Below, in pieces: positions 56 through 55,647 of a DNA stretch of 64,000 bases. The notes under the pieces were generated by a model. That model made no database searches and had not been told where the DNA came from. It saw only the letters and a list, made by a program, of their open reading frames with translations. Source of the DNA: Patescibacteria group bacterium (GTDB taxonomy: Bacteria > Patescibacteriota > Minisyncoccia > 2-02-FULL-40-12 > GWA2-44-9); contig JBBTYA010000001.1 of assembly GCA_038061995.1 (NCBI GenBank), positions 10,441-74,440 on the forward strand, written 5' to 3'. The translations under genes were made by a program, and so were the position numbers. Position 1 is the stretch's first letter. Each line of letters begins with the position of its first letter.

Positions 56-128
56 GGCGGGGGCGCCAGGATTTGAACCTGGATACCTGGTTTTGGAGAC
101 CAGAGTCCTACCGTTGAACGACACCCCC
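56..128 (-). tRNA. tRNA-Trp (anticodon CCA); 3' end encodes CC then U, not a full CCA
   Basis: Cloverleaf read by hand on the reverse complement. Acceptor stem is GGGGGTG/CGCCCCC, T-arm is CCAGGTTCAAATCCTGG, and the anticodon loop CTCCAAA gives CCA. Confidence 0.8.
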
Positions 129-167
129 ATGACAAAGACCTGCGCACGGGTGCACAGGCTTTGTAAA

Positions 168-332
168 CTAGCCGGTCAGTTTTGCTTCTTTGTGAATCGT
201 CCGCTTTTTGCAAGAAGAGCAGAACTTTCGTAACTCAATCTTTCGCTCTACTTTCTTCTTGTTTTTCGACGTGTAGTAATTGGCCTCTTTACACACGGCG
301 CACTTCAGACGAATAAGGTTGTCTTGTGACAT
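168..332 (-). CDS. rpmG: 50S ribosomal protein L33
   Basis: The translation MSQDNLIRLKCAVCKEANYYTSKNKKK...CSSCKKRTIHKEAKL shows the L33 zinc-ribbon signature. The internal ATG at 332 was preferred over the track start at 386. Confidence 0.85.
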   Translation of the reverse strand: MSQDNLIRLKCAVCKEANYYTSKNKKKVERKIELRKFCSSCKKRTIHKEAKLTG

Positions 333-361
333 ATATGTAATTACGGTTATGACGAACCGTG

Positions 362-433
362 AGCCGACGGTGAGAATTGAACTCACGACCTACTCCTTAC
401 CATGGAGTTGCTCTACCTCTGAGCTACGTCGGC
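362..433 (-). tRNA. tRNA-Thr (anticodon GGT); no encoded CCA
   Basis: Acceptor stem GCCGACG/CGTCGGC, D-arm TAGCTCAGAGGTAGAGC, anticodon loop ATGGTAA and T-loop GTTCAATTC. Confidence 0.8.
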
Positions 434-452
434 ATGCTTCCCTTCTCCTCAC

Positions 453-595
453 TGTGGGGGCGGTAGGCTCTCCTTCGCCTCTCGACTTGCCGTCGCAAGT
501 CTCGGGCTAGGCACCGACTCGCGATCGCATAAGCTTTTGCGATACCGCTCCGTCGTTCGAATCCCACCGCTTCAGAACGACGATGATTTTTTACA
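453..595. other. Unresolved structured segment between tRNA-Thr(GGT) and tRNA-Tyr. It holds an exact 15-nt copy of the tRNA-Tyr 3' end (tgtgggggcggtagg), GC hairpins, and a + strand hairpin followed by a U-run. By E. coli-like synteny this is where a tRNA-Gly would be expected, but no cloverleaf could be folded.
   Basis: The 15-mer at 453-467 is identical to 623-637. There is a perfect 7-bp hairpin cgacttgc/gcaagtc and an 8-bp hairpin ccgtcgttc...gaacgacg followed by ATGATTTTTT. No T-arm or anticodon arm could be found on either strand. Confidence 0.25.
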
Positions 596-623
596 TGCCT
601 CAAGGCATCTAAAAAATACATTG

Positions 624-708
624 TGGGGGCGGTAGGATTCGAACCTACGTAGGCCGATCGGCCGACAGATTTACAGTCTGTTGTGATTGACCACTCCACC
701 ACACCCCC
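624..708 (-). tRNA. tRNA-Tyr (anticodon GTA), class II with a long variable arm; no encoded CCA
   Basis: Acceptor stem GGGGGTG/CGCCCCC, anticodon stem-loop ACAGA-CTGTAAA-TCTGT, long variable arm CGGCCGATCGGCC and T-arm GTAGGTTCGAATCCTAC. Confidence 0.85.
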
Positions 709-724
709 ATGTAATGAACTGCGG

Positions 725-796
725 AGCCGGCGGTCGGGATTGAACCGACGACCTACTGTTTACAAAACAGTTGCTCTACCACTGAGCTACGCCGGC
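725..796 (-). tRNA. tRNA-Thr (anticodon TGT)
   Basis: Acceptor stem GCCGGCG/CGCCGGC, anticodon stem-loop ACTGT-TTTGTAA-ACAGT and T-arm GTCGGTTCAATCCCGAC. Confidence 0.8.
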
Positions 797-5259: not shown

Positions 5260-5331
5260 AGTAGTATAGAGAGAATACGAAGCTCGGATATCGTACCAAA
5301 GCCAAGCCAAAAAGGCAAGAAGTCTCATCGG

Positions 5332-5484
5332 CAAAGAAGCCTTCGCATCCCTCCAGACACGCGTCTCATGCTTCCTGCGAGCATGAGCGCTCCCTCTCAC
5401 CCTCACCCAAGCTTCTGTACTAGAAGCTCGACCAAGCGGTTTGGGTTCCGAGAGGTCTTACGGGATTACGAAGGCTTCTTTTGG
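5332..5484 (-). repeat. Structured repeat family, copy D (minus orientation), in the 5' leader region of rplY
   Basis: Its reverse complement reads ...agacctctcggaacccaaaccgcttgg...gggtgagggtgagagggagcgctcatgctcgcaggaagcatgagac..., which is near-identical to copy B. Compensatory changes are ctcttgc/gcaagag in B versus ctcatgc/gcatgag here. Flanking 14-bp arms are caaagaagccttcg/cgaaggcttctttg. Confidence 0.55.
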
Positions 5485-5616
5485 GCTGGTTGCGCAACAT
5501 ATAAAAACGTTGTATAATAATAGTGCTGGGATGCTACGGCATCACCGGTGTGTCCGAATCAGCGCCTAAGGGTGCAATGGTGGGATACCCTTAACAATAA
5601 AGAAAGGACGTAGGCC

Positions 5617-6582
5617 ATGCTATTCATGCTCGGCGTGATTGGTGCTGCCGTCTTCTGCCTGGGAGGGCTAATCCGGGGGTTGGCTCGTAATTGGAGAAAC
5701 CTCCCCAACTTCGTCTGCAACAAGGTTGGCGGCGTGACCGCCTACTGCTCAGTAGAAGACTTCCGTGCTGGAAAGCGCATCCCTGGCGACATGGTAGTGG
5801 CTCCCGGCACCATCTCGTTCATCGAAAAGCCATGGTCAGGCATGCCATGCGCGGCCTATCTCATGAACGCGTCACCATGGCCCTTCTTCTACGGCGACGC
5901 AAAGAACGAGCCACAGCTCTTCGTGCCGTTCGCGTCGGAGCGACACATGCCATTCAAGGCTCAAGCCAGCGTCTTCAGCTTCGCCCCGAAGACGCTGGAA
6001 GAGCTCGAAAAGATGATCAGAGACAAGCGAGAGAGAAACACTCGCAATGATGCGCGCTTCCGTCTCCTCAAATTCGAGCGCAAGTTCGATGAGGAGATCT
6101 TCACAACAAGACTGGTTGCCTTCTTCCTCGTTTTGGTGGTGATAGCTGTCGGATCACTGAGAGGGCTCGACCGATGGGAGAAGGAGCGCCTCGCAGCACC
6201 GGCAGCGTTCTACACCACGACCGCCGGCTCCTCTGAGCTCACCGAGCATCGCGGGACCGAAGGCGATCTGCGAAAGCTGATCGTCTACGGAGGTATCAAC
6301 GATACCATCGTTGCAGGGCCGGTCACGGATATCATGGCTCTCGGCGGAGGACTTTCGTACGTCTGCGTCCGCGTGGGCTCCCCCGAGCGCAGAGAGTGTG
6401 GCTTCGGAGGCCTGGAGACGGTGGCCCAGAAGATCGGGCAGACCGCCTACATTCGCAAGAGCCTTGGGAAAAACTGGTTCGTGCCCAACAGCCCCGAAGG
6501 CTACAGTGATTCCGTCTCGTGGCTCATCACCAAGCCCGAGGCAAGAGCGCTCGCCGCGAAAGGCTACGCGCTCAAGGAGTAA
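5617..6582 (+). CDS. Hypothetical membrane protein
   Basis: 321-aa ORF with hydrophobic segments at the N-terminus and mid-protein (FFLVLVVIAVGSL). No family was recognised. Confidence 0.4.
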   Translation: MLFMLGVIGAAVFCLGGLIRGLARNWRNLPNFVCNKVGGVTAYCSVEDFRAGKRIPGDMVVAPGTISFIEKPWSGMPCAAYLMNASPWPFFYGDAKNEPQLFVPFASERHMPFKAQASVFSFAPKTLEELEKMIRDKRERNTRNDARFRLLKFERKFDEEIFTTRLVAFFLVLVVIAVGSLRGLDRWEKERLAAPAAFYTTTAGSSELTEHRGTEGDLRKLIVYGGINDTIVAGPVTDIMALGGGLSYVCVRVGSPERRECGFGGLETVAQKIGQTAYIRKSLGKNWFVPNSPEGYSDSVSWLITKPEARALAAKGYALKE

Positions 6583-6587
6583 TCCCC

Positions 6588-6625
6588 ACAGCCCCAGAGA
6601 AATCTTCTGATTTCTCTGGGGCTTC
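6588..6625 (+). terminator. Rho-independent terminator after the 5617-6582 ORF
   Basis: Stem ccccagagaaatc...gatttctctgggg followed by a T-rich tail. Confidence 0.5.
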
Positions 6626-6659
6626 TTCATTTATAAAGCTGAAAGCTGGCAGGGTATAC

Positions 6660-6694
6660 AAAAAGAGAGGCGCTTAAGCGCCTCTCTTTTTTCT
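6660..6694. terminator. Bidirectional terminator hairpin
   Basis: Stem aaaagagaggcgc ttaa gcgcctctctttttt, with an A-run on the 5' side and a T-run on the 3' side. Confidence 0.5.
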
Positions 6695-6709
6695 TACACA
6701 TACCACCCT

Positions 6710-7426
6710 CTAGAACCCTGAACGATTACGGCGCGAGGCGTTCCAGCGCCATGCTGCGAGCGCTACAAGAATAACTGCCGCCAGCACTCCCCACGTGCGA
6801 GTCGTAAGGCCGAGGAAGAATGCTGCCTGTGTAAGGTCAGGCGTTTCGCCCTCTGTTTCTGTTCCTACAGTATTACCTTCAAGTGGCGTTGGGCTTACTG
6901 ATGCCCCTGCAATTGCTCCTGCATCAGGTGACGCAGTTGCCGCTGCTGGAGCTGGCGTACGCACCGTAACTGCTACCGTGCTACCGCCAGTGAAAAGGTT
7001 TGCGTTCGTGCCATCAAGCATGAGTGTAGCGCCTGCTACTGCGATAGTTGCAGTGCCTGCCTGCTTTGCGCGAAAGGTTGCCGTACCTAATGCGCGAGGC
7101 GTGTTGAAGCCACCCGCGACACCGCCTGTTTTAATGAGTGCGCCTGTGGCGTTATCAATGGCATCATAGCCAGGTTGCGCTACGGGAAGCCATCCCGAAG
7201 CAAACGTGAAACCGGTTACTTCAAGAACTGCTGGATCAAACGAGACGTTTGCACGCGCTGTCGTAATGGTTGCGCCAGTTGGATTTGCGGTCACGGTAAC
7301 GGTGAAGCGCTGCCCGGTAGATACCGCACGTGATGCTTGGCCAAGCGAGATCGTTGCCGCATGTGCGGAAGTCGCCACAGCCCCCACTAATACAACCGCG
7401 AGAACGAAAGAATAAAGATGTTTCAT
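6710..7426 (-). CDS. Secreted cohesin-like beta-sandwich domain protein with a C-terminal TM anchor and a basic tail
   Basis: Signal peptide MKHLYSFVLAVVLVGAVATSAHA. Domain pattern RFTVTVTANPTG...VSFDPAVLEV...YDAIDNATGALIKTGG...GTATFRAKQAGTATIAV is cohesin-like. The C-terminus reads TPDLTQAAFFLGL...ILVALAAWRWNASRRNRSGF. Confidence 0.5.
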   Translation of the reverse strand: MKHLYSFVLAVVLVGAVATSAHAATISLGQASRAVSTGQRFTVTVTANPTGATITTARANVSFDPAVLEVTGFTFASGWLPVAQPGYDAIDNATGALIKTGGVAGGFNTPRALGTATFRAKQAGTATIAVAGATLMLDGTNANLFTGGSTVAVTVRTPAPAAATASPDAGAIAGASVSPTPLEGNTVGTETEGETPDLTQAAFFLGLTTRTWGVLAAVILVALAAWRWNASRRNRSGF

Positions 7427-7431
7427 AAAGA

Positions 7432-8109
7432 TTATACGCTCCAGTTAGTAAGCAAGAGATTAAAGTCGAAGATGTCTACCGTGCCGTCACCGGTGATATC
7501 GGCTGCACGGTTTGCTGGGTTCGGACCCCAGTTTGCCATCAAGAGGTTAAAGTCGAAGATGTCTACGCGACCATCACCGTTAATGTCGCCGCTACGTACT
7601 GCGTTGTTCGTCTGACCCGCAGTTGGCGTTGCGGTTGGAGTCGGTAATCCGCCACCCCCGCCTCCTCCACCTCCACCGCCCCCACCACCACCACCGGAAG
7701 GCGTGGGTGTTGGTGTGCTTGGTGCCGAAGAGCTAATGGTATACGAAAATGTAACCACCGTAGATGAAGCGCCGCCGCTATAGCATGCGATTGCCTTAAG
7801 CGTTGTGTTGCCACTAATACCAACAATGCCCGACGCGCCAGTGATAAGCGTGCCCGTGCTACACGTTGGCACTGTGCCGTCATCGGTGTAGCGAATGCTC
7901 TGTGCGCCAGATGCGCTCAAGGTCACACTTTGAGTCCCTATATAGCTTCCCGTGCTTGGGCTTGCTGTTGGTTCATTCACGAGCGTGCCGCCAATAGATT
8001 GACTCGTGACTGTATTTGGTTGATTGACCGTCCCCGTTACTTCCGACGCAAGTACTCCGGCGGGAACCGCCAGGAGTACTGCGAGGATAAGAGAAGAAGT
8101 GATACGCAT
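7432..8109 (-). CDS. Secreted dockerin-containing protein with a CHB_HEX_C-like (Fn3-like) domain, a 16-residue poly-Gly linker and two dockerin repeats
   Basis: Signal peptide present. IRYTDDGTVPTCSTGTL...LKAIACY matches the chitobiase/hexosaminidase C-terminal-like motif. G16 linker. The two repeats GDINGDGRVDIFDFNLLMANWG and ADITGDGTVDIFDFNLLLTNW match the dockerin calcium-binding pattern. Confidence 0.65.
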   Translation of the reverse strand: MRITSSLILAVLLAVPAGVLASEVTGTVNQPNTVTSQSIGGTLVNEPTASPSTGSYIGTQSVTLSASGAQSIRYTDDGTVPTCSTGTLITGASGIVGISGNTTLKAIACYSGGASSTVVTFSYTISSSAPSTPTPTPSGGGGGGGGGGGGGGGGLPTPTATPTAGQTNNAVRSGDINGDGRVDIFDFNLLMANWGPNPANRAADITGDGTVDIFDFNLLLTNWSV

Positions 8110-8114
8110 AGAGG

Positions 8115-11100
8115 TTAGAGACTTTGAATACCGTAGTCCGCGGAGTAGACGCCTCCTGCGGAGCCAGTCGGGATTTTAGCTTCCACGATAATGCGAATCT
8201 GGCGACCAGCAGTGTTTGCATCCAAGTCACCCGTCATGGTCATGGCGCCAGCGTAGGTGCCTGCCGCCGATACGGTGATAGCCGCACCGCTCGTTGCCGC
8301 ATTTGATGACTCGGCGCTGTAGTAGCGGATATTACTTGCCGCGACGATCGTGTTCGTGCCACTCACGAAATTACTGAATTGCATGGAGACACTCGCCTCA
8401 AGCGTTGGCACGGTTACATCGAAGAACCATTTCCAACCACTCGCATAGGTATCGTTCGCAATAGCGAAGGCACGAGAAGGGTCAGAGCTAATATTCGTCA
8501 CCTCAAGCGCCGCTGCACCTTCTGCTTCAGTGATAATACGAGAGTTGCTGGTTCCGCTCACATTACCCGCCGCATCTGTGGCGGTGACGGTAAATGTATT
8601 CGCTACGTTCTGCGTCAGTGGGGCGATGAACGACCAACTAGTAACACCTGTGGGCAGCGTGAGCGAACCAACCACTACACCGCCACGATAGATCGTGATG
8701 ATGCGTGCGCCATCAGTTGGAAGATCTGCGCCTGCAGTGCCACTCAACGTGTACGATGTCGCGTCTACTGAAGTATCGGCGCCACTAATCATTGGCGTTG
8801 CCGGAGCTGTTGTATCTCCAACAGTTGCTGCTTCGGTGATAGTGACTGTACTCGACGCTGTGCTGGTGTTGCCGACAACGTCCGAAGCCGTGGCAGAGAA
8901 GACGTTTGTCGTCCCCTGCGTCAGCGCAGTAAGGAATGACCACGTAGTCTGTCCTGCTGGTACTACCGTGGAACCAACGAGTGTTGCTCCATTAAGAATG
9001 CGGATCGTGCGAGCACCCCCGTCATCAGTCACCGTTCCCGCAAGGGTGTAGGTGTCTGCATCTACCGTTGCGGCGCCCGTGGTAAACACCGGAACTGCTG
9101 GTGCCGTGGTGTCGGGAGCTGTCGCCGATTCAGTGATCGTGACGGAGCTTGATGCTGCGCTTTCATTGCCGCTTACATCTGTCGACGTTGCAGAGAATGC
9201 ATTCGTCGTACTCTGGAGTAATGGCGATACGAATGACCAGGCAGTCTCACCTGCAGAGAGTGATAAAGATCCTACAACCGTTCCATTGCGACGGATAGTG
9301 ATCACGCGCACGCCGTCACTTGGGAGATCAGCGCCCGATGTACCCGTAATGGTATAGGAATCCGCATCAACGGTAATCGCGCCCGTAGTAATGACCGGAG
9401 TTGCTGGATCTGTCACGTCACCAATAGTAGCTGCTTCAGTAATGGTGATTGTGCTCGATGCACCACTCGTGTTGCCAGCGACATCTGATGCGGTTGCGGA
9501 AAATACATTAGCCGTATTCTGCGTCAACGCTGTGATGAGAGACCAGCTTGTCTGTCCGGCAGGTACAACCGTAGAACCAACGAGAGTCGCTCCGTTGTAG
9601 AGCTGGACAGTTCGTGCACCGCCATCGTTAGTCACTGTGCCCGCAAGGGTGTAGGTGTCTGCGTCAGTTGTTGCTACGCCTGTAGTGAACACTGGGACTG
9701 CTGGAGCGGTAGTATCAGCAACCGCAACTGTCGTAAAGGTGTTGTCGGTTGAGGTTACAGAGTTGGTAAGCGCGTCTGCTGATGTCACGCGGAAGTGATA
9801 TTCCGTTCCTGATGCCAAGCCAGAGATGGCAACCGAGTGGCTCGTTGCATTTGCGGTTATATCTACCGCGCTGGAAGAACCATAACTAGATGTGGTGCCA
9901 TACTCCACGTTTGATGTAGCGTTTTCATCGGTCGTCCACGTAATCGTGACGCCCGTGGTTGTGATGCTCGTCGCCTGGACGTTACTAATCACTGGAGCAT
10001 CGACATCAGTGCTGGCATTGTTCGTAATAACCACCGCGGCACTTGCGGCACTTGAATTACCAGAGGCATCGGTCGATGTTGCTGTGATGCTGTTGCCCGT
10101 ATCAAGCGAGAGGCCAACTACTACTGACCAACTTGTTTGACCAATAGGAAGCGTTACCTGGCCTGCGAGCGTTGCACCGTTGTAGACGCGAATCACGCGT
10201 TCAGAATCAGAAGGTGTATCCGCTGCCGCTGTTCCTAAAATCGTATATGTGCTTGCGGTTGTTGTCGCCACACCAGTGGTAATCGCTGGCACTGGAGGAG
10301 CAACGATATCGCTGGAATCAGCAACCGTAGTGAACTCGTACGAAGCCTTCGTAGTTGCGTCGAGCGCCGTTGCAAGCGCATTGCCAACGATGTCTTGCAC
10401 TCCCGTAGAAACTGCGACGTAGTACTGTGTTGCAAAACTCAAGTTGCTCGTTGGCATAATGTGAGCAACCTTATTGCCTTCAATCAGGGAGATAGAAGCT
10501 GGGATCACAGAGTCGTCGCTGTATTTGCGAAGCTCAATGGTTGTTGAGCTAATGGTTGATTCCATCATCTCTTCGTTGAACGTTACGGCGATGGAAGTGC
10601 TAATACCAACATTGGTTGCATTATCGGCAGGAGAGATGCTCACCACTGTTGGAGCAGTAACATCTGCTGAAGATGCTTCGGTGGTGAATTCCTGACTTAC
10701 TGCGGTGGTATATGCGGTGACATCATTTCCTGCCGCATCTTTGGCACCAGAGACCCAGATATAGTAGTTCGTGCTGTAATCCAATGCGGAGCTTGGGTTC
10801 AAGGTTGCAACAAGGCGGCTATCGCTCAACGTTACCACTACACCGGTCACATCAACATCACCCGCAACCAGCTTCAACTTCACAGTGTTGGAGTTTACCG
10901 TTGATGGATCCATGACTTCCGAAAATGTCACCGTTGGAGAGACTGCTACCGAAACGCCTGTTGCGTTATCTGCTGGTGTCTGCCCTGTTACTGTCGGCAC
11001 CGTGGTGTCTGGCTGAAGCGTGGTGAAGACAATTGCTTCCCATTGGCCAGTATTTCCACCTGCGTCCTGACAGCGCACATAGTAGGTATGCTGTGCCCCC

Positions 11101-14100
11101 GCGAGAAGACCCGAAAGTGCGTGCGAGTGACTTGTACCGCCCGTTGTGCCCATAGCAAGCATGGCACTATATACCGTGTTCACATTTGAATAACGGCACG
11201 TTGCAGTCTCATCCGTCGTTGCGGTGAGTGTTGCCGCTGTCGTGGTCACACCCGTTGCGCTTGCCGCGGTAATCACTGGGCCGGCGTTATCGATAGAACG
11301 CGTGTTGTTCGTTGCAGTTGCGTTCGCGTTACCCGCGAGGTCGGTCGCGGTAATCGTAACAGTTGCTGTGCCTTCCTCATCTTGTGCACCAGGAGTCTGC
11401 CAGTTGTAGGTCCACACCGTGTTTGAGGTCTTCGTCATGTTTACGGTTGCCGTGTCACCATCACCAGCAGTCGTAATTGTAATAGTTGGCTTACCAACCA
11501 AAGGTTCGTGGATTGCTTCGCTGAAGGTTGCAGTAATCACCACACCCTCAAACCAGCCGTAGGCTGCTTTATTTGGTGAATAGGTCAGAGCAACAGTTGG
11601 AGCAACAACATCGCCCGTGTTTGCTGTAGTACCCACTACTTCAGCACTTGAAAGGTAGTTGAGCGCGGCGTCGCGGATTTTACTTGCCGCTGGCGTTACG
11701 GCGATCACGTCTCCATTGCGAAGGTAGGTTGCAGTATCAGTGGCGCTTTCAGCAAGCGTAATAGTGAGCGCGCTTCCCGAATACGAGAAGTTCGCACCCG
11801 TAAGGTTAAGTGCTGTGCCATCTGGGCTTTCGATTGCCGAAAATTCATTTGTAGACCACGTACCGTCATGTGCAATCACCGGTTCGCTAAAGGTGATCAC
11901 AATAGTATCGTTCGCGCCCTGAATAGTTGCACCGACGATATTCCCAGCTGGGAGTGTTGGGATCACCGTATCCTTCAAGGCCGTGTCCGTACCTGCGGCG
12001 CTCGTGTTGCCAGCCGCATCTGTTTGCGTGATGCTCAAGGTGAGATCGAGATCATCATCAAGCGAAGAAACGTTAATGCCAGAGATAGAGATAGCACCAA
12101 GTCCATCAACAGTTCCTACGCCCGTTACTGCCGGCGTCAACGCGTTATCGTCATTAATAGACCATGCGAGTGAGGCATTCGCTTCGCCAGTGCCCGTGAT
12201 AGTCACCGCCGTTACGTTGCCAGCATTGATTGGGTCGAGGAGTGTTGGGATTGGAGCCGCTGGCGTGTTCGCGTCCACTGCAACCGTGTTTGCGGTCACG
12301 GTGGTATACGCCACATTCACGTTCCCTGCCGCATCCACGAGCGCAACGCTCGCGGGCACCGTTCCTGAAGCGCGGTCAGTGTTGCCCTCTACAATTGTGT
12401 AGGTTGCTGTGTACGTACCAGCGCCTGCATCGTTATACGCAGTCACCGCAACACCGTTCACCGTTACTGCGCTTGCCGTATATCCCGCCGCATCTGCGGT
12501 GATTGTGATGGTAACAGCATCGCCAACGCCATGGAGGCCGTTTGGAGACAGTACAATCGCACTCACCACTGGCTCTGTGGTATCCACTATAATTGCTGCG
12601 TTTGCCGCAAGGTTGGAACCGGGCACAAAGCTTGCCATCGCATTACTGGCAAGATCTGCTGCGGTGCCCGTGATGCCGGTGGTCGTAAGGTCTGCACTGT
12701 TCTCGCCATCAGCGATCGTGTAGTTGCATGAGCCACTCGTTGCGCTCGTGACTGCAAAAGAACACGAGCCGGTCGTGTCGAGGGTCACAATGAAGTTTAC
12801 TGAAGACGTGATCGCCTCTGAGAAGTTAACCGTGATGTTAATGACATCTGGGTTGTTATATGAGCCATTCGACGTTGTTGACGTCACCGATGTGATAACA
12901 GGATCGACATTATCTGTCGGCGTTATTGTCTGCCCGAGAGGCGAAATATTCCCCACCGAATCCTGCACACCATTCCCAAGGGCACTCATCGTAATCAACA
13001 GTGTATCACCAGTGCCAAATGCAGAGGTCGTGAGCGTAATCACCCCAGCAAGTTCTGAAGTTCCAGAAACGGTTACGCCAGCAACGGTAAAGTCAGAAGC
13101 GGCATCCGTTGTTCCGTTGAGATCCTCGCTGAACGTGACGTTGACAGTTGTCGTTGACGTGGTTTCCGCAGAGATCATCACCGGGCTAGCGCCATCAGTC
13201 TCCGCTTCATCGCCATTAGCAACCGATGCGAGAAGGTTGCCTGCAAGGTCAGCACCGCTTCCTGCCGTATACGTCACCTGCTTTACGTCCGTACCTACAA
13301 TTTCCGGAGCAATCGTAACGTCAAATGTGTTGTCATCTGCCGTTCCTGTGGTAATCCCCGTTGCCGCCGAGCCGCCGATCGTGAAATTGCCAGCAGAGAA
13401 CGTTGAGCCATCAACGGCCGCATCAAATACGATCGTTGCTGTGTCTACCGAACCATTTCCGTTTGCATCTTTTGTAGTAATGCTGGAAATCGTCGGGATC
13501 GTTTCGTCATAAGTAACTGAAGAGCTGTTCGTTGTTGCAGTAACAGCTGCTGCAGCCGCATTTCCGTTCACGTCAGAGAATGTAACCGAGAAAGGCACTA
13601 CGCCTTCCGCTTCTGTGCCAGCAAACGTGTAGGTAGCTGTCCAGTTCGTTGGGCCACCGGCTACAAGCGCGGGATTGCCAGCGATGGTGACCGTCGGCGC
13701 ACCAATACTCTCACTAGAGGTAAATGTAAGCGTGGCTACCGAACCAGTCTGCGCAAACGCCGTATTTACATGGTTTGAGGCGATAGAAACGCTGGTAAGC
13801 GTTGGACGGGTTCCGTCAATCGTAACCGTAACATCGGAACCACTCTGTGCGGCACTTACATTACGCGCATCCGCATGATCCCCCATAGTCACACCAGAAA
13901 TTTGAAGTGCGGAACTTTGGTCAGCACTTCCCGAAGCGACGGTATATGTTGCCGTATATGTAACACCGGAATCTAGCGTAACCCACGGTGTAAGAGCTGT
14001 TCCGTTGTATGAACCAGTAACAAGAGCGGCAGGTTCCGTCGTCGTTGCCGAAGCAGTAAAGGTAATCGAATCGCCAATCTGTAAAACGCCAGCCGGTGCT

Positions 14101-14576
14101 CCATCCGTTACAGATGAGGTGATGGTGTTCAATACTGGAGCTGTGTTGTCGATCTCAAAAGCTCCAGAGAAGCCGATAGGAGCTGCCTGCCCTGCGCGCC
14201 GCATAATGATTGAATACCCCGTATCATCCGTTGTCGGCCCCGCAAGTGTAGTTGCGGTGTTCCAACTATACACACCATCATTTGTCTCACTAAGAGCGAT
14301 AGTGGTCTCATTGTTTAAAGAGTCTCGCAGAAAAATATCAACGGTTTCCGGATCTGCCAAGGGGAGTGTCGTCCACGTGATATTGTGTGTACCACTCCAA
14401 ATTTCACCACCAGCTGGCGAGCCAACCGTAATGCCAGCAATCACCGCTTGCGCTGGAGCCAAAGGTACAAAAAAGCCGCCAAGGAGCATGAGGGCGGCGA
14501 GAACAGCAGCGCTGCGCGATCGCAACGTGCGAGGGGTAGTGACATTCGTGCGTGACAACATAAGTTCCGAATACAA
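8115..14576 (-). CDS. Giant (2153 aa) secreted cell-surface protein made of tandem Ig-like (Big-like) and fibronectin type III-like domains
   Basis: N-terminal signal peptide (AVLAALMLLGGFFVPLAPAQA). At least six ~100-aa repeats of the type TTAPAVPVFTTG...YTLAGT...NGATLVGS...SATASDVAGN, plus Fn3-like units (TITWTTDENATSNVEYG...YHFRVTS). Rich in Thr, Ser, Ala and Val. The start codon is ambiguous. Confidence 0.7.
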   Translation of the reverse strand: MYSELMLSRTNVTTPRTLRSRSAAVLAALMLLGGFFVPLAPAQAVIAGITVGSPAGGEIWSGTHNITWTTLPLADPETVDIFLRDSLNNETTIALSETNDGVYSWNTATTLAGPTTDDTGYSIIMRRAGQAAPIGFSGAFEIDNTAPVLNTITSSVTDGAPAGVLQIGDSITFTASATTTEPAALVTGSYNGTALTPWVTLDSGVTYTATYTVASGSADQSSALQISGVTMGDHADARNVSAAQSGSDVTVTIDGTRPTLTSVSIASNHVNTAFAQTGSVATLTFTSSESIGAPTVTIAGNPALVAGGPTNWTATYTFAGTEAEGVVPFSVTFSDVNGNAAAAAVTATTNSSSVTYDETIPTISSITTKDANGNGSVDTATIVFDAAVDGSTFSAGNFTIGGSAATGITTGTADDNTFDVTIAPEIVGTDVKQVTYTAGSGADLAGNLLASVANGDEAETDGASPVMISAETTSTTTVNVTFSEDLNGTTDAASDFTVAGVTVSGTSELAGVITLTTSAFGTGDTLLITMSALGNGVQDSVGNISPLGQTITPTDNVDPVITSVTSTTSNGSYNNPDVINITVNFSEAITSSVNFIVTLDTTGSCSFAVTSATSGSCNYTIADGENSADLTTTGITGTAADLASNAMASFVPGSNLAANAAIIVDTTEPVVSAIVLSPNGLHGVGDAVTITITADAAGYTASAVTVNGVAVTAYNDAGAGTYTATYTIVEGNTDRASGTVPASVALVDAAGNVNVAYTTVTANTVAVDANTPAAPIPTLLDPINAGNVTAVTITGTGEANASLAWSINDDNALTPAVTGVGTVDGLGAISISGINVSSLDDDLDLTLSITQTDAAGNTSAAGTDTALKDTVIPTLPAGNIVGATIQGANDTIVITFSEPVIAHDGTWSTNEFSAIESPDGTALNLTGANFSYSGSALTITLAESATDTATYLRNGDVIAVTPAASKIRDAALNYLSSAEVVGTTANTGDVVAPTVALTYSPNKAAYGWFEGVVITATFSEAIHEPLVGKPTITITTAGDGDTATVNMTKTSNTVWTYNWQTPGAQDEEGTATVTITATDLAGNANATATNNTRSIDNAGPVITAASATGVTTTAATLTATTDETATCRYSNVNTVYSAMLAMGTTGGTSHSHALSGLLAGAQHTYYVRCQDAGGNTGQWEAIVFTTLQPDTTVPTVTGQTPADNATGVSVAVSPTVTFSEVMDPSTVNSNTVKLKLVAGDVDVTGVVVTLSDSRLVATLNPSSALDYSTNYYIWVSGAKDAAGNDVTAYTTAVSQEFTTEASSADVTAPTVVSISPADNATNVGISTSIAVTFNEEMMESTISSTTIELRKYSDDSVIPASISLIEGNKVAHIMPTSNLSFATQYYVAVSTGVQDIVGNALATALDATTKASYEFTTVADSSDIVAPPVPAITTGVATTTASTYTILGTAAADTPSDSERVIRVYNGATLAGQVTLPIGQTSWSVVVGLSLDTGNSITATSTDASGNSSAASAAVVITNNASTDVDAPVISNVQATSITTTGVTITWTTDENATSNVEYGTTSSYGSSSAVDITANATSHSVAISGLASGTEYHFRVTSADALTNSVTSTDNTFTTVAVADTTAPAVPVFTTGVATTDADTYTLAGTVTNDGGARTVQLYNGATLVGSTVVPAGQTSWSLITALTQNTANVFSATASDVAGNTSGASSTITITEAATIGDVTDPATPVITTGAITVDADSYTITGTSGADLPSDGVRVITIRRNGTVVGSLSLSAGETAWSFVSPLLQSTTNAFSATSTDVSGNESAASSSVTITESATAPDTTAPAVPVFTTGAATVDADTYTLAGTVTDDGGARTIRILNGATLVGSTVVPAGQTTWSFLTALTQGTTNVFSATASDVVGNTSTASSTVTITEAATVGDTTAPATPMISGADTSVDATSYTLSGTAGADLPTDGARIITIYRGGVVVGSLTLPTGVTSWSFIAPLTQNVANTFTVTATDAAGNVSGTSNSRIITEAEGAAALEVTNISSDPSRAFAIANDTYASGWKWFFDVTVPTLEASVSMQFSNFVSGTNTIVAASNIRYYSAESSNAATSGAAITVSAAGTYAGAMTMTGDLDANTAGRQIRIIVEAKIPTGSAGGVYSADYGIQSL
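8700..10000. repeat. Intragenic tandem DNA repeats with a ~300-bp unit and a ~600-bp super-unit, encoding the repeated Ig-like domains near the C-terminus of the giant protein
   Basis: Repeat pairs b/d and c/e of the protein are ~85% identical. The + strand shadow ORFs in the track repeat near-identical peptides (e.g. ...VLPTTSEAVAEKTFVVPCVSAVRNDHVVCPAGTTVEPTSVAPL versus ...VLPATSDAVAENTLAVFCVNAVMRDQLVCPAGTTVEPTRVAPL). Confidence 0.6.
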
Positions 14577-14704
14577 ACCCGTGCGATAAACGATGCGTGC
14601 AACGGAATAGCATGCACCGCCACCTCAAAGGCGTTCATTAGTATTCCATCCTGTCTACTCTTTTATGTTTTCACTGTCAATGAATAGCGCGAAAGCCCAG
14701 CAAA

Positions 14705-14738
14705 AAAGGAAAACCGGGCCTCTCTGGACCCGGTTGTC
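14705..14738 (-). terminator. Rho-independent terminator downstream of the zinc-ribbon gene, which separates it from the giant gene
   Basis: Minus-strand stem ccgggtccagagaggcccgg followed by ttttcctttttt. Confidence 0.45.
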
Positions 14739-14745
14739 AGCCTCA

Positions 14746-14949
14746 CTATGAGGCAGGTTGCGCCGCCGCGAATTCGGCGGCATGCGCCCACAGCACTCCG
14801 CAGAAGGGGCACGCGCGAGCGTCGCCCTGCAGGCAATTCTCGCACTTGCTCCCGCTACACCGCGAACAGGAATACAGAAGGACTCCATCTTCCCCGCAGT
14901 GTGTACAGTTGCCCGCGTGCGTATGGGCGACTACCTTCTCGCTGGCCAT
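14746..14949 (-). CDS. Small Cys-rich protein with four CxxC motifs (double zinc ribbon)
   Basis: The translation MASEKVVAHTHAGNCTHCGEDGVLLYSCSRCSGSKCENCLQGDARACPFCGVLWAHAAEFAAAQPAS carries CTHC, CSRC, CENC and CPFC. It has its own terminator. Confidence 0.4.
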   Translation of the reverse strand: MASEKVVAHTHAGNCTHCGEDGVLLYSCSRCSGSKCENCLQGDARACPFCGVLWAHAAEFAAAQPAS

Positions 14950-47889: not shown

Positions 47890-48212
47890 AAAGAAAAAGG
47901 GCCCCGATGCGTTGGGGCCCAGAACGACAGCAACCCTACCAGGGCGTAACACTGAGAACTCCACAACGGTGAAGCCCTCCTTCTCGGCATTCAGCCAGTT
48001 GAGCTCTCACTGGCCTGAGGCTTGAAGTCGCCTCCGTAGCTTCGGTAGCGAGTTTTCGCATTTAGGAACCTTAGCTAACGGTCTGGGTTTACGTCTCAGC
48101 GATGTGCTGCTGAAAAAAGGTACGAACGATCCTCCCTCTCGTCTCTATACGAACCAGTCCCAAAACCTCGGCTTCTGGTATGCCCTAGCTTGGGTAGAGA
48201 CTTTCAGGCTGC
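47890..48212 (-). ncRNA. Candidate ~320-nt GC-rich structured ncRNA of unknown class, with no ORF, delimited by a promoter (TTGACG, 17 nt, TAAACT at 48220-48248) and a rho-independent terminator (47898-47921)
   Basis: No ORF of 60 aa or more on either strand. Promoter and terminator geometry are good. Internal hairpins include GCCAGUGAGAGCUCAACUGGC. The tests made for RNase P P4 (GGAAAGUCCGG), the tmRNA termini and the SRP domain IV motif were negative. Confidence 0.35.
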
Positions 48213-48247
48213 CACGACAAGTTTAGTACACTCAGAAAAATCGTCAA

Positions 48248-48273
48248 GAAAAAGCGACGGTCGAAACCGTCGC
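48248..48273 (-). terminator. Rho-independent terminator after the island gene 48391-48669
   Basis: Minus-strand stem gcgacgg tttcga ccgtcgc followed by tttttc. Confidence 0.4.
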
Positions 48274-48390
48274 CTGCAGGCCTCCTGGTTTTTACACCAT
48301 CAGCCCGCCGAAGTAGCGATGCTCACCGAGCACCGTCCCGGCAGGAACAGCCAGTCTCCCTCAATGTGTAATGTGGCTCCAAAACAAGGA

Positions 48391-48669
48391 CTACTGGATC
48401 TCCTTTCTCTTAGTAAGAACGTCTTCGGCCTTTTTAGAAAGTCCGAGGTCTCCAGTAAGATCGATTAGTTGATTATCCGATAAGAATATTAGTCCCTCGG
48501 ACAACTCCGCTTCAACTTTTATTTTTTCTTCCAAGTCTTCTGAAGACACATTTTGAACATTTATCTTATCACCGGGCATGGCTTCATAGGCTCGAATAGA
48601 AGTCTTCCTTAGAAGCTCCTTATACCTTTTAAATAGCGCTTGATATTTTTTTACAGAATTTATATCCAT
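48391..48669 (-). CDS. Hypothetical Lys/Glu-rich small protein (AT-rich island gene 4 of 4)
   Basis: 92-aa ORF in a segment whose GC is visibly lower than its flanks. Confidence 0.35.
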   Translation of the reverse strand: MDINSVKKYQALFKRYKELLRKTSIRAYEAMPGDKINVQNVSSEDLEEKIKVEAELSEGLIFLSDNQLIDLTGDLGLSKKAEDVLTKRKEIQ

Positions 48670-48672
48670 TAC

Positions 48673-49236
48673 TTATTTTCTTACCCACACCTGTTGTCGA
48701 GTATTAATTGTTGACCAATCATAGGCAGAAATATAGGTTTGGCTCCCTTTAAGTTTAGCTCCATTTTCTGTTAACTTCATTAAGAAAGCGCCTTTGCCCA
48801 TATTATTACTATCTCTAGCCTTACTATTACACATAAGTATGGTGTCAACGAAAGTACCTTCAAACTCAAACAACTTTCTACACTTTTCACCACTAGGTTG
48901 TTTTGTTAAAAGTAACTCTCCATAAATCTTATTCCCTTGTTGGTTTAAAATTACTGTTGATTCTGAGTCCGGCCCAACCACATACTCACCTCCCTCAATC
49001 GTTGCCGCATATCCAAGCCATTCCCCACGTATATTAATACCCTTGTAAATTAAATTCTGATACCAGGGAAGTACTATTTTTCTAAAAATAGAGATTGTAA
49101 ACCCAATAATAACGTAGGTTATTATACCAGCCACTACGCCCAAAAAAAGATTTACAGCTGCATAATTTATGTATGCATTCATAGAAGCCATCGGCTCCGA
49201 GTCGTAAACGACGTTAGAACTATTGCGCAACAGCAA
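48673..49236 (-). CDS. Hypothetical membrane-anchored protein (island gene 3 of 4)
   Basis: 187 aa with one N-terminal TM helix (LFLGVVAGIITYVIIGFTISIF) and then a soluble domain. Confidence 0.35.
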   Translation of the reverse strand: MLLRNSSNVVYDSEPMASMNAYINYAAVNLFLGVVAGIITYVIIGFTISIFRKIVLPWYQNLIYKGINIRGEWLGYAATIEGGEYVVGPDSESTVILNQQGNKIYGELLLTKQPSGEKCRKLFEFEGTFVDTILMCNSKARDSNNMGKGAFLMKLTENGAKLKGSQTYISAYDWSTINTRQQVWVRK

Positions 49237-49268
49237 AATCGGTATATCTACATTCCTGATTTAAGGAA

Positions 49269-49463: not shown

Positions 49464-49469
49464 TATATT

Positions 49470-55643: not shown

Positions 55644-55647
55644 AGTG

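What the first reader, a model, noticed from the sequence alone, without database searches (positions are those of the whole stretch)
6710..14949. Surface-display cluster: cohesin-like anchor, dockerin protein, 2153-aa Ig/Fn3 giant protein and a double zinc-ribbon micro-protein
Four co-directional minus-strand genes make up the cluster. The first is a 67-aa protein with four CxxC motifs that has its own terminator. The second is a 2153-aa secreted protein with six or more near-identical ~100-aa Ig-like repeats plus Fn3 units. The third is a secreted protein with a CHB_HEX_C-like domain, a G16 linker and two canonical dockerin repeats. The fourth is a cohesin-like domain protein tethered by a C-terminal TM helix and a basic tail (a sorting-signal-like end, but with no LPXTG). 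A cohesin-dockerin pair beside a giant adhesin-like protein suggests a cellulosome-style modular surface assembly used for attachment. This would be important for a small-genome organism if it is an episymbiont. The near-identical intragenic repeats of ~300/600 bp and the poly-G tract (7657-7704) are recombination and slippage substrates that could vary the length of the protein.
Basis: partly seen in the sequence, partly recalled or inferred. Interest (0 to 1): 0.6.

Follow-up and report, generated by a model that had tools for sequence, protein, structure and literature searches.

The report
Cohesin-dockerin surface tether in Patescibacteria
An ultra-small groundwater bacterium (Patescibacteria) carries a three-gene cassette (a 2148-aa fibre of Ig-like domains, a small dockerin adaptor and a membrane-anchored cohesin) that is conserved across the phylum and most likely fastens adhesin-like fibres to the cell surface with the plug-and-socket pair known from cellulosomes.

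Summary
The four minus-strand ORFs exist. The cohesin (Pfam 29 bits against a cut-off of 24.1; the AlphaFold model matches solved cohesins almost exclusively) and the dockerin (32.3 against 22.9; two canonical Ca2+ loops) are real. The window comes from a Hainich groundwater Patescibacteria MAG.

- The giant has five ~100-aa repeats, 41-83% identical and at most 71.5% at DNA level. They are not six or more near-identical copies.
- The Gly16 tract lies at 7648-7695, uses mixed GGN codons, and is a linker found in most of the family.
- The 67-aa CxxC ORF sits behind its own terminator, is frameshifted in the sister strain and is absent from other cassettes. It is not part of the module.

Across 80 species-representative loci, 68 of 84 dockerin genes are followed at once by a cohesin gene with a C-terminal transmembrane helix. 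All 17 CHB_HEX_C-dockerin adaptors are preceded by a gene carrying the giant's unannotated 135-aa terminal domain ("CTD"; 654 cluster representatives, no Pfam match, no close solved fold). A conserved adaptor N-terminal peptide tracks the CTD, even in minimal adaptors that lack the CHB domain.

The sister strain lacks exactly one 201-aa double repeat.

Best reading: a membrane cohesin, dockerin adaptor and CTD-cargo tether for adhesin-like fibres. All binding steps are inferred. It is a new variant of a known kind.

The parts
6710..7426 (-). Anchor gene, 238 aa. Parts: Sec signal peptide (aa 1-24), cohesin domain (aa 25-160, nt 6947-7354), Ala/Thr/Pro/Glu-rich linker (aa 161-207), C-terminal transmembrane helix (about aa 208-231, nt 6734-6805) and basic tail RRNRSGF.
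   Evidence: Pfam Cohesin 29 bits against a cut-off of 24.1. AF2 pLDDT above 90 for the domain and helix 209-233. The top ~48 Foldseek PDB hits are almost all cohesins, best E 1.5e-9. In relatives the same architecture appears in 64/68 cohesin proteins (C-terminal TM), 63/68 (TM plus basic tail) and 0/68 (LPXTG).
7432..8109 (-). Adaptor gene, 225 aa. Parts: signal peptide (aa 1-21), conserved N-terminal extension SEVTGTV... (aa 22-46, nt 7972-8046), CHB_HEX_C_1/Fn3_assoc beta-sandwich with two invariant Cys (aa 51-123, nt 7741-7959), Ser/Thr/Pro stretch, Gly16, and a C-terminal dockerin (aa 175-224, nt 7438-7587).
   Evidence: Pfam CHB_HEX_C_1 38.2 bits, Fn3_assoc 34.1, Dockerin_1 32.3 (cut-off 22.9). 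NCBIfam dockerin_GC 29.4 against 29. 164 homologues of the same architecture. Family alignment A3.
7648..7695 (-). Gly16 linker (aa 139-154) encoded by mixed GGN codons.
   Evidence: A G-run of at least 5 occurs in 46/50 family members. G148-G151 are at least 90% conserved.
7438..7587 (-). Dockerin module. Two 22-residue segments, DINGDGRVDIFDFNLLMANWG and DITGDGTVDIFDFNLLLTNWS, start 29 aa (87 nt) apart. Each has a D-x-N/T-x-D-G-x-x-D-x-x-D Ca2+ loop.
   Evidence: Regex hits at 7552-7587 and 7465-7500, the only two in the 64-kb window. An 83-nt direct repeat at 72% identity, spacing 87 nt. Weak PDB sequence hits to dockerins 2jnk, 5lxv_B and 2y3n_B.
8115..14561 (-). Cargo gene, 2148 aa (2153 from the TTG at 14576). 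Parts: cleavable-looking signal peptide (...LLGGFFVPLAPAQA|VIAG), conserved N-terminal domain (~aa 45-150), about 20 Ig-like/Big_5/Big_12/Big_13/fn3 modules, and a terminal CTD.
   Evidence: NCBI names it 'Ig-like domain-containing protein'. The N-terminal ~150 aa and C-terminal ~165 aa are the parts conserved in two or all three of the distant cassette giants compared, while the middle varies more.
8520..9719 (-). Four tandem ~100-aa Ig-like (Big_13/Big_6) repeats R1-R4 (aa 1620-2019, A-B-A'-B'). A fifth copy, R0, lies at aa 1420-1521 (nt 10014-10319), before the fn3 at aa 1528-1616.
   Evidence: 41-83% pairwise aa identity. DNA 71.5% over 428 nt. A 23-nt exact repeat at 9662 and 9059, spaced 603 nt. 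The sister strain L007 lacks aa 1638-1838, exactly 201 aa.
8118..8522 (-). 'CTD': the unannotated 135-aa terminal beta-sandwich of the giant, proposed here as the handle recognised by the adaptor.
10977..11909 (-). Strain-variable cassette inside the giant (aa ~890-1200). It is ~50% identical to the sister strain, whereas aa 1-900 are 93-100% identical.
   Evidence: There is no nucleotide-level match between window 11710 and 11029.
6665..6686 (-). Terminator-like hairpin (GAGAGGCGC-TTAA-GCGCCTCTC followed by TTTTTGT) that closes the three-gene operon.
   Evidence: Read directly from the sequence.
14746..14949 (-). 67-aa four-CxxC ORF with a strong Shine-Dalgarno sequence (AGGAGGTGAT) and its own terminator at 14712-14735. 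It is a neighbour, not a member of the module.
   Evidence: It carries a 94-nt frameshifting deletion in L007. It is a singleton in the protein collection. It is not called in the NCBI or ENA assemblies. A CxxC-rich small ORF lies upstream in only 1/24 other cassettes.

Best explanation
The locus is a three-gene operon (14561 to 6710, minus strand) that builds a non-covalent surface tether in a Patescibacteria cell.

Step 1, shown by sequence and fold: the 238-aa protein is exported. It stays in the membrane through its C-terminal helix and basic tail, and holds one cohesin outside the cell on a ~50-aa flexible linker.

Step 2, inferred from family biochemistry and from conserved gene adjacency: the 225-aa adaptor is secreted and plugs its C-terminal, internally symmetric, Ca2+-type dockerin into that cohesin.

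Step 3, inferred from co-occurrence only: the adaptor's conserved N-terminal peptide (consensus ASEVTGTLSTGVSTGVEGTV), possibly helped by the CHB_HEX_C beta-sandwich, captures the 135-aa terminal CTD of the 2148-aa cargo. The cargo has no anchor of its own.

Result: the cargo is a string of about 20 Ig-like modules. Assuming ~4 nm per module, it would be roughly 70-90 nm long. It projects from the cell with its conserved N-terminal domain at the far end, acting as an attachment or surface-coat fibre.

Strain variation: the fibre varies between strains by gain or loss of a 201-aa double repeat and by replacement of an internal ~300-aa cassette. The anchor and adaptor stay 94-97% identical.
For: Domain identities:
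- Cohesin, dockerin, CHB_HEX_C_1, Big_5 and fn3 all score above Pfam's curated cut-offs.
- The cohesin fold is confirmed by AF2 plus Foldseek.

Operon structure:
- The intergenic gaps are 5 nt each.
- A terminator lies downstream at 6665-6686, and another lies upstream at 14735-14712, separating the operon from the preceding genes.

Conservation:
- The same giant, adaptor and cohesin order occurs in Minisyncoccota and other Patescibacteria with unrelated flanking genes.
- In 80 species-representative loci, 85/87 dockerins are C-terminal. Of 84 dockerin genes with room downstream, 68 are followed immediately by a cohesin gene.
- 64/68 cohesin proteins end in a transmembrane helix, 63 with a basic tail, and none has LPXTG.

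Link between cargo and adaptor:
- 17/17 CHB-dockerin adaptors have a strong-CTD gene immediately upstream. The figure is 0/8 for PxFPHxFYG-type adaptors and 0/25 for large dockerin proteins.
- The CTD sits at either terminus of otherwise unrelated secreted proteins.
- Minimal adaptors made only of signal peptide, N-terminal peptide, poly-Gly and dockerin (L037, 115 aa; also L041 and L072) still follow a CTD gene. None of the 49 dockerin proteins without a CTD neighbour matches the N-terminal peptide profile.
- The cargo proteins I read (window giant, L016, L018) have no TM helix, LPXTG or other recognisable anchor after the signal peptide.

Cargo type: the cargo domains are adhesin-like (Ig, HYR, cadherin-like, MBG, YDG).

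Strain variation.

External context: a dockerin-domain protein is essential in the cultivated epibiont Southlakia epibionticum (PMC10633639).
Against: - No binding step was tested. Complex prediction was not possible.
- 16 of 84 dockerin genes have no adjacent cohesin, so dockerins can work without a cis-encoded partner, or with one encoded elsewhere.
- The N-terminal peptide profile is short. Four of the seven non-CHB, CTD-linked adaptors score only E 0.02-1.6.
- The CTD model is confidently folded on its own (pLDDT 95), so it gives no sign of needing a partner strand.
- Signal-peptide cleavage of the giant is read by eye only. If the peptide is not cleaved, the giant would be anchored at its N-terminus and would not need the adaptor.
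- There are no expression or localisation data.
Confidence: 0.6

Rival explanations
1. The cohesin anchors only the small adaptor. The adaptor's CHB_HEX_C domain is itself the functional head, for example a lectin-like glycan binder. The giant is an independently acting secreted or N-terminally anchored adhesin that is merely co-transcribed.
For: CHB_HEX_C_1 and Fn3_assoc domains occur in carbohydrate-active surface proteins (family descriptions). Many cohesin-linked small dockerin proteins have other small beta-rich heads and no CTD gene upstream (PxFPHxFYG type 0/8; sequences). They therefore look like self-sufficient displayed modules.
Against: The association between CHB adaptors and CTD genes is perfect (17/17). 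Minimal adaptors with no head domain at all (L037, L041, L072) still pair with CTD genes, and a headless adaptor has nothing to display. The CTD is one of the few parts shared by otherwise unrelated cargo proteins, and it is always terminal.
Confidence: 0.2
2. The giant is a surface-layer or coat protein rather than a host adhesin. The cohesin, adaptor and CTD chain would then be the coat's membrane attachment system, replacing SLH domains or sortase.
For: The cargo is large, built of Ig-like domains, has no anchor of its own and varies between strains, as S-layer proteins often do. S-layer plus dockerin proteins have been noted in ANME archaea (PMC9012536). The mechanism is the same as in the best explanation, and only the biological role differs.
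Against: Cargo sizes range from 358 aa to about 2000 aa with very different domain sets, including cadherin-like, YDG/MBG and HYR. That fits a family of adhesins better than a single lattice-forming protein. Some genomes carry several dockerin-cohesin pairs (L036, L087, and L046/L052 in one genome). There are no abundance data.
Confidence: 0.15
3. The cohesin-like and dockerin-like modules do not bind each other. The dockerin repeats act as generic Ca2+-binding or structural EF-hand-like elements, and the gene adjacency reflects shared regulation or export only.
For: Dockerin repeats also score on EF-hand and FG-GAP models. The cohesin score is only 5 bits above the cut-off. Non-cellulosomal cohesins and dockerins are common, and few have been tested (PMC9012536, citing Peer et al. 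2009).
Against: 81% immediate adjacency across about 75 species, with highly variable cargo, is hard to explain without a pairwise function. The cohesin fold is unambiguous. Archaeal non-cellulosomal pairs that were tested do bind, as reported in PMC9012536 (refs 167, 168).
Confidence: 0.05

Closest known systems
Ruminococcus flavefaciens CttA-ScaE and other single-cohesin anchoring proteins (C. thermocellum OlpA, OlpC, SdbA). Named from my own knowledge of the cellulosome literature. Solved complexes of this class appear among the fold hits (4dh2, 3ul4, 4iu3).
   Same: A cell-bound protein with one cohesin holds a dockerin-bearing, non-enzymatic adhesion protein at the surface. In R. flavefaciens the anchor gene sits next to the adhesin gene. 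The dockerin is C-terminal with duplicated Ca2+ loops.
   Different: The anchor here is a C-terminal transmembrane helix, not SLH domains or a sortase/LPXTG link (0/68). There is no scaffoldin, CBM or glycoside hydrolase. The host is a Patescibacterium. In this cassette the dockerin is on a separate small adaptor rather than on the cargo. A Gly-run linker, found in most of the family, precedes the dockerin.
Non-cellulosomal cohesin-dockerin proteins of archaea and other bacteria (Archaeoglobus fulgidus cohesin 2xdh; ANME archaea; Peer et al. 2009 as cited in PMC9012536)
   Same: Cohesin and dockerin modules occur outside any cellulose-degrading context and are thought to attach functional proteins to the cell exterior. 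2xdh is among the structural matches (TM 0.75).
   Different: Here the two modules lie on adjacent genes in a strict 1:1 arrangement that is conserved phylum-wide. They come with a defined third component (CTD cargo) and a membrane-helix anchor. None of the papers found describes this arrangement.
Clostridium perfringens toxin-complex cohesin (X82) and dockerin modules (2jnk/2ozn, 2jh2, 2vo8, 2w1n)
   Same: These are non-cellulosomal pairs that join large secreted proteins. The 2jnk dockerin is the best true-dockerin sequence hit (E 0.0022), and 2vo8 is the best TM-score cohesin match (0.81).
   Different: Those modules sit inside glycoside hydrolases and link enzymes to each other. Here they link adhesin-like, non-enzymatic proteins to the membrane.
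Gram-positive fibrillar adhesins (adhesive tip, repeat stalk, C-terminal wall anchor) and donor-strand-complemented pilins (chaperone-usher pili)
   Different: There is no LPXTG or sortase signal, and attachment would be non-covalent through two protein-protein joints. No usher or chaperone is encoded nearby. The pilin similarity is too weak for membership (Foldseek E>1e-3).

Membership tests
Cohesin (Pfam PF00963) | Sequence score at or above the curated gathering threshold | tested here: met
   29.0 bits against 24.1, aa 26-141, E 1.4e-6. Precomputed Cohesin hits for the orthologous genes in L011-L013.
Cohesin (Pfam PF00963) | Cohesin beta-sandwich fold | tested here: met
   AF2 pLDDT above 90 for about aa 24-160. 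The top ~48 Foldseek PDB hits are almost all cohesins, E down to 1.5e-9, target TM 0.7-0.8.
Cohesin (Pfam PF00963) | Binds a dockerin with high affinity | not testable with these tools
Only indirect support is available: 68/84 dockerin genes have an adjacent cohesin gene.
Dockerin type I (Pfam PF00404) | Score at or above the gathering threshold, and two duplicated ~22-residue segments, each with a Ca2+ loop (D-x-[ND/T]-x-D-G-x-x-D-x-x-D) followed by a helix | tested here: met
   32.3 bits against 22.9. NCBIfam dockerin_GC 29.4 against 29. Both loops found at 7552-7587 and 7465-7500.
Dockerin type I (Pfam PF00404) | Ca2+-dependent folding and cohesin binding | not testable with these tools
   This needs biochemistry or multimer modelling.
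Cellulosome | Scaffoldin with multiple cohesins that integrates dockerin-bearing glycoside hydrolases, usually with a CBM | tested here: not met
   The cluster has a single cohesin and no CBM or glycoside hydrolase domain. The window holds one cohesin and one dockerin only. Of the 14 cargo or large dockerin proteins among the 17 scanned, only one has an enzyme-like domain (Polysacc_deac_1 in L090).
Wall-anchored single-cohesin anchoring proteins (SLH or sortase type) | SLH repeats or an LPXTG sorting signal after the cohesin | tested here: not met
   No SLH match in the Pfam scan. LPXTG-like motif in 0/68 family members, whereas 64/68 have a C-terminal TM helix.
CHB_HEX_C_1 (PF13290) / Fn3_assoc (PF13287) | Score at or above the gathering threshold | tested here: met
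   38.2 against 22 and 34.1 against 23, aa 51-123.
Bacterial Ig-like Big_5 (PF13205) and fn3 (PF00041) in the giant | Score at or above the gathering threshold | tested here: met
   Big_5 120.7 bits in 5 stretches. fn3 26.3 against 25 on the whole protein and 31.5 on the fragment. Big_13 31.7 and Big_6 28.9 on the repeat region.
Chaperone-usher / donor-strand pilins (considered for the CTD) | Incomplete Ig fold completed by a neighbour's N-terminal strand, with significant structural similarity to pilin subunits | tested here: inconclusive
Zinc-ribbon / zinc-finger small protein (67-aa ORF) | Two pairs of CxxC plus a match to a curated family | tested here: inconclusive
   Four CxxC motifs are present. 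The best Pfam hit, zf-MYND, scores 16.9, below the cut-off of 22.7. The best PDB hit has E 0.17. The ORF is a singleton cluster.

The most novel reading that the evidence does not exclude
Patescibacteria use a phylum-wide, previously undescribed three-part display system. A membrane-helix cohesin holds a dockerin adaptor. The adaptor's conserved N-terminal peptide then captures a new ~135-aa terminal 'handle' domain (CTD), perhaps by beta-strand addition in the manner of pilins. The CTD has 654 cluster representatives, no Pfam family and no close solved fold. If this is right, the system would be a main way these wall-poor episymbionts mount interchangeable, fast-evolving adhesin fibres, and would be a direct handle on host attachment.
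Probability: 0.3. Interest if true: 0.8.

Novelty: new variant of a known kind. Interest (0 to 1): 0.62.

Why it matters
Patescibacteria (CPR) make up a large share of bacterial diversity. Their few cultivated members, mostly Saccharibacteria, grow attached to host cells (PMC10633639). How they build and anchor attachment structures is largely unknown.

This locus gives a concrete and testable answer. It uses the strongest known modular protein-protein joint, cohesin-dockerin, outside any polysaccharide-degrading context. The joint is fixed to the membrane by a simple helix and is encoded as a cognate gene pair next to its cargo.

The comparative data turn one window's curiosity into a family:
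- about 70 dockerin-cohesin gene pairs in 80 species-representative loci;
- a defined sub-type with an adaptor and a new terminal domain.

A dockerin-domain protein was found to be essential in the cultivated epibiont Southlakia (PMC10633639), and no partner was reported for it. The adjacent-cohesin rule suggests where to look.

The modules are small, soluble and easy to express, so the predicted interactions can be tested directly. Orthogonal cohesin-dockerin pairs are also useful tools for protein engineering.

Tried and rejected
2. A word-index homology search with the giant's last 134 aa found nothing. The exhaustive HMMER search then found 654 relatives.
3. A profile of the CTD against PDB sequences gave no significant hit. 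Foldseek against afdb50 was unavailable.
4. I considered whether the CTD is a second cohesin and rejected it. The CTD model's best hits are GH123 N-domains and pilins, not cohesins.
5. I considered the 67-aa zinc-ribbon ORF as part of the cassette and rejected it.
6. I considered the poly-G tract as a homopolymer contingency locus and rejected it. It uses mixed codons, has no G run longer than 5, and is present in most of the family. Gly counts among the three close strains are 16, 15 and 16, so at most one codon varies.
7. I considered a sortase, PEP-CTERM or other processed sorting signal on the cohesin tail. No conserved motif precedes the helix in the six aligned sequences or in the 68 tails.
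8. A context look-up of an N-terminal-CTD protein (P0153) was uninformative because the contig ends just after the gene.
9. Literature searches for cohesin or dockerin together with Patescibacteria, CPR, Parcubacteria or Saccharibacteria found no description of this arrangement.

Full report
SOURCE AND OBSERVATION

All four minus-strand ORFs are present at the stated coordinates. An exact-sequence look-up places the window in Hainich aquifer assemblies (well H51, 0.1 um fraction; NCBI MAG GCA_964361305.1). The nearest relatives are labelled 'Patescibacteria group bacterium'. Public gene calls start the giant at the ATG at 14561 (2148 aa) rather than the TTG at 14576. The NCBI and ENA assemblies do not call the 67-aa ORF at all.

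Pfam places each protein above the curated thresholds:
- Cohesin: 29 bits against 24.1.
- CHB_HEX_C_1: 38.2 against 22.
- Fn3_assoc: 34.1 against 23.
- Dockerin_1: 32.3 against 22.9.
- Big_5: 120.7 bits in five stretches.
- fn3: 26.3 against 25.

NCBIfam adds dockerin_GC at 29.4 against 29.

The giant/adaptor and adaptor/cohesin gaps are 5 nt each. A clean hairpin plus T-run follows the cohesin gene at 6665-6686. A terminator-like site at 14735-14712 separates the 67-aa ORF from the giant. The transcription unit is therefore three genes, not four.

The repeats. Tiling the giant against itself gives five ~100-aa units: R0 at 1420-1521, before the fn3, and R1-R4 at 1620-2019 in an A-B-A'-B' pattern. 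Pairwise identity is 41-83%. At DNA level there is one 428-nt pair at 71.5% identity. The repeat finder reports no repeat inside the gene. The longest exact repeat is 23 nt.

The poly-G tract. A Gly run of at least 5 is present in 46/50 family members. A run of at least 4 lies just upstream of the dockerin in 54/87 dockerin proteins from other species. It is a selected flexible linker.

The 67-aa ORF. It has a strong Shine-Dalgarno sequence and four CxxC motifs, so it may well be expressed. Several points argue against membership of the cluster:
- In the sister strain, whose flanking intergenic DNA is otherwise identical, a 94-nt deletion between two TTCGCGG copies frameshifts it.
- It is a singleton in the 15-billion-protein collection.
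- Only 1 of 24 other cassettes has any CxxC-rich small ORF upstream.

The cohesin. With only six sequences in the alignment, AlphaFold2 still models residues ~24-160 at pLDDT above 90, with a C-terminal helix at 209-233. The top ~48 Foldseek hits in the PDB are almost all cohesins (6kgf_C, E 1.5e-9). They include the non-cellulosomal ones from Archaeoglobus (2xdh) and C. perfringens (2vo8, target TM 0.81).

The dockerin. It has two nearly identical 22-residue segments, DINGDGRVDIFDFNLLMANWG and DITGDGTVDIFDFNLLLTNWS, with complete Ca2+ loops. These are the only two such loops in the 64-kb window. The near-identity of the two helices suggests the symmetric 'dual binding mode' described for type I dockerins (for example 2vn5, among the hits). 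That point is inference.

Repeat number. The close relative from well H41 (locus L007; cohesin 94% identical) carries the same three genes. Its giant is 1958 aa, and the alignment shows one clean 201-aa gap (aa 1638-1838), which is exactly one A-B double repeat. The 23-nt exact repeat lies 603 nt apart, the same length as that gap. Copy number therefore does differ between strains, even though the repeats are diverged.

The same comparison shows a mosaic. Aa 1-900 are 93-100% identical. Aa ~900-1200 drop to ~50%, with no nucleotide-level match between 11710 and 11029. The rest is 77-98% identical.

GOING BEYOND THE WINDOW

The adaptor has 164 detectable homologues, mostly ~200-aa proteins with the same CHB_HEX_C plus dockerin architecture. 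The sources name them Minisyncoccota or Staskawiczbacteria. Three of them on long contigs (40-48% identical) each sit between a 1581-1682-aa Ig-repeat protein and a ~250-aa cohesin protein, with completely different flanking genes.

I then used the adaptor alignment to pull 80 loci from species-representative genomes. Most are labelled Patescibacteria or lineages within it (Paceibacterota, Kaiser-, Nealson-, Jorgensen-, Yanofsky-, Vogel-, Magasanik-, Taylor- and Liptonbacteria). The rest carry generic or automatic labels, including six 'uncultured Gammaproteobacteria'.

I scanned their ORFs with HMMs built here for the cohesin protein, the CHB domain, the dockerin and the giant's terminal domain. 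Results:
- 87 dockerin genes, 85 of them with the dockerin at the very C-terminus.
- Of the 84 with at least 500 nt downstream, 68 (81%) are followed within -100 to +150 nt by a cohesin gene on the same strand.
- Of the 68 cohesin proteins with a complete C-terminus, 64 end in a hydrophobic 19-mer, 63 of these followed by at least 2 Arg/Lys, and none has LPXTG. Two of the four exceptions are masked by N runs.

The dockerin-bearing protein ranges from 110 to ~2000 aa. In some species the dockerin is on the large protein itself (L034, L057, L090).

Cargo domains are Ig-like, HYR, cadherin-like, MBG/YDG, SpaA-like and lamin-tail. Only one enzyme-like domain was seen, a polysaccharide deacetylase in L090. 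The general rule is a C-terminal-dockerin surface protein followed by a cognate membrane-anchored single cohesin, used to display adhesin-like proteins rather than enzymes.

THE THIRD COMPONENT

The window's giant has no dockerin, no C-terminal helix and no sorting motif. Its N-terminus looks like a cleavable signal peptide (AQA|V). What it shares with all three distant cassette giants is its last ~165 aa (43-48% identity). Its first ~150 aa also match two of the three (L011 and L012). The middle varies more.

The last 135 aa have no Pfam match and no PDB sequence match, even with a 33-sequence profile. The exhaustive search finds 654 cluster representatives at E<=1e-3 and 568 at <=1e-10. The domain lies at the extreme C-terminus in 102 of the top 150, and directly after the signal peptide in 43.

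Its AF2 model is very confident (pLDDT 95.3). It is a beta-sandwich whose best solved neighbours are only moderately similar:
- Foldseek finds nothing at E<=1e-3.

In the species set, every CHB-dockerin adaptor with enough upstream sequence (17/17) is preceded by a gene carrying this domain at E<1e-30. The domain can be at either end of a 358- to ~2000-aa protein. In contrast, 0/8 adaptors of the PxFPHxFYG type and 0/25 large dockerin proteins have such a neighbour.

Seven further small adaptors without a CHB domain also follow a CTD gene. They include three minimal ones that consist of little more than a signal peptide, a ~20-aa peptide, a Gly-rich linker and the dockerin (L037, 115 aa; L041; L072).

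What all CTD-linked adaptors share is the mature N-terminal peptide, consensus ASEVTGTLSTGVSTGVEGTVIVA. In the window it reads SEVTGTVNQPNTVTSQSIGGTLVNE. A profile of this peptide hits 17/20 CHB adaptors. Among the non-CHB adaptors it hits 3 of the 7 CTD-linked ones at E<0.01, and the other four score E 0.02-1.6. It hits none of the 49 dockerin proteins without a CTD neighbour.

This co-variation is the basis for proposing that the adaptor, through this peptide and perhaps with the CHB domain, holds the CTD.

MECHANISM, WITH STATUS OF EACH STEP

Shown by sequence or fold:
- The three proteins carry signal-peptide-like N-termini.
- The cohesin protein carries a C-terminal membrane helix and a cytoplasmic basic tail.
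- The adaptor carries a canonical dockerin behind a Gly16 linker.
- The giant is a chain of ~20 beta-sandwich modules ending in the CTD.

Inferred from family biochemistry plus 81% adjacency: the dockerin binds the neighbouring cohesin.

Inferred from co-occurrence only: the adaptor binds the CTD, so the giant is tethered by its C-terminus and projects its conserved N-terminal domain outward.

The length estimate of 70-90 nm assumes ~4 nm per Ig-like module, from general knowledge.

The biological role (host attachment as opposed to surface coat) is not decided by my data. The adhesin-type domain repertoire, the multiple pairs per genome and the strain-level variability favour attachment.

COMPARISON WITH KNOWN SYSTEMS

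The module works like the anchoring end of a cellulosome, where a single-cohesin cell-bound protein holds a dockerin protein. R. flavefaciens ScaE with the adhesin CttA is the closest analogy I know. It is not a cellulosome:
- It has no multi-cohesin scaffoldin, CBM or glycoside hydrolases.
- Anchoring is by a transmembrane helix rather than SLH or sortase.
- The host is not a polysaccharide degrader of that kind.

Non-cellulosomal cohesins and dockerins are known in all domains (Peer et al. 2009, cited in PMC9012536). Automated annotation already names these genes 'cohesin domain-containing' and 'chitobiase/beta-hexosaminidase C-terminal domain-containing'.

In the searchable literature I could not find any of the following:
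- the conserved dockerin-cohesin gene pair of Patescibacteria;
- the adaptor sub-type;
- the CTD;
- the N-terminal peptide.

The only nearby statement is that a dockerin-domain protein is essential in Southlakia epibionticum (PMC10633639).

VERDICT

The fourth gene and the 'near-identical repeat / poly-G slippage' details are wrong. I file the locus as a new variant of a known kind, namely cohesin-dockerin surface anchoring. It may include a genuinely new coupling element (CTD plus adaptor peptide) that still needs a binding test. Confidence in the three-part tether as a whole is 0.6. It is higher for the cohesin-dockerin joint and lower for the CTD-adaptor joint.

Noticed in passing
window 5320-6710 (ORF 5617-6582 on the + strand; hairpin 6590-6623): About 1.2 kb between the cohesin gene and the L25 gene is absent from the sister strain L007, where the corresponding stretch is 169 nt. 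It holds a 321-aa + strand ORF with no Pfam match, ending 8 nt before a 15-bp-stem terminator. Public gene calls instead annotate a 158-aa ORF on the opposite strand. This is probably a strain-specific insertion with a mis-called gene.
   Followed up: partly
window 14746-14949 compared with L007 3065-3470: The 67-aa four-CxxC ORF is hit by a 94-nt deletion in the sister strain. The deletion is bounded by a 7-nt direct repeat (TTCGCGG) and lies within intergenic DNA that is otherwise 100% identical. It looks like a microhomology deletion.
   Followed up: yes
window 10977-11909 (giant aa ~890-1200): An internal ~300-aa cassette of the giant is only ~50% identical to the sister strain, while the preceding 900 aa are 93-100% identical. 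This looks like cassette replacement by recombination or strong diversifying selection.
   Followed up: partly
L010 3654-4259 (Logan contig SRR31091725_35052): In a third close strain the adaptor is 201 aa and keeps only one of the two dockerin segments (29 aa missing). That matches recombination between the 83-nt, 72%-identical direct repeats at window 7441-7523 and 7528-7610. It could also be an assembly collapse.
   Followed up: partly
N-termini of CTD-bearing proteins (window 14450-14561; P0126-P0275; L015-L066): Many signal peptides of CTD-bearing proteins contain an (S/G/A)GFF motif in the hydrophobic core (33/137 representatives and 10/21 species loci; the window has LLGGFFVPLAPAQA). 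It may be a family-specific export or processing signature. The adaptor and cohesin signal peptides in the window lack it.
   Followed up: partly
window 48001-50000: G+C drops to 0.41, against ~0.52 elsewhere in the window, with strongly negative GC skew. This may be foreign or otherwise atypical DNA.
   Followed up: no
window 56-796 and 55647-55731: A cluster of four tRNA genes (Trp-CCA, Thr-GGT, Tyr-GTA, Thr-TGT) lies at the window start, and a tRNA-Ser(TGA) lies at 55.6 kb. All are on the minus strand.
   Followed up: no
L007 16769-20714 and L008 11658-15603: The sister strain has a second, larger surface-protein gene (over 2768 and over 2897 aa, running off the locus) about 6 kb downstream of the cassette, after S2, EF-Ts and a MerR-like gene. 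I did not check whether the window's genome has the equivalent.
   Followed up: no
L031, L042, L043, L048, L054, L063, L069, L081: A second class of small dockerin adaptors has a conserved mature N-terminus, PxFPHxFYG. The one scanned (L043) has no Pfam match outside the dockerin. Each is also followed by a cohesin gene and preceded by a 600-940-aa gene without the CTD. They may form a parallel adaptor/cargo system with its own recognition element.
   Followed up: partly
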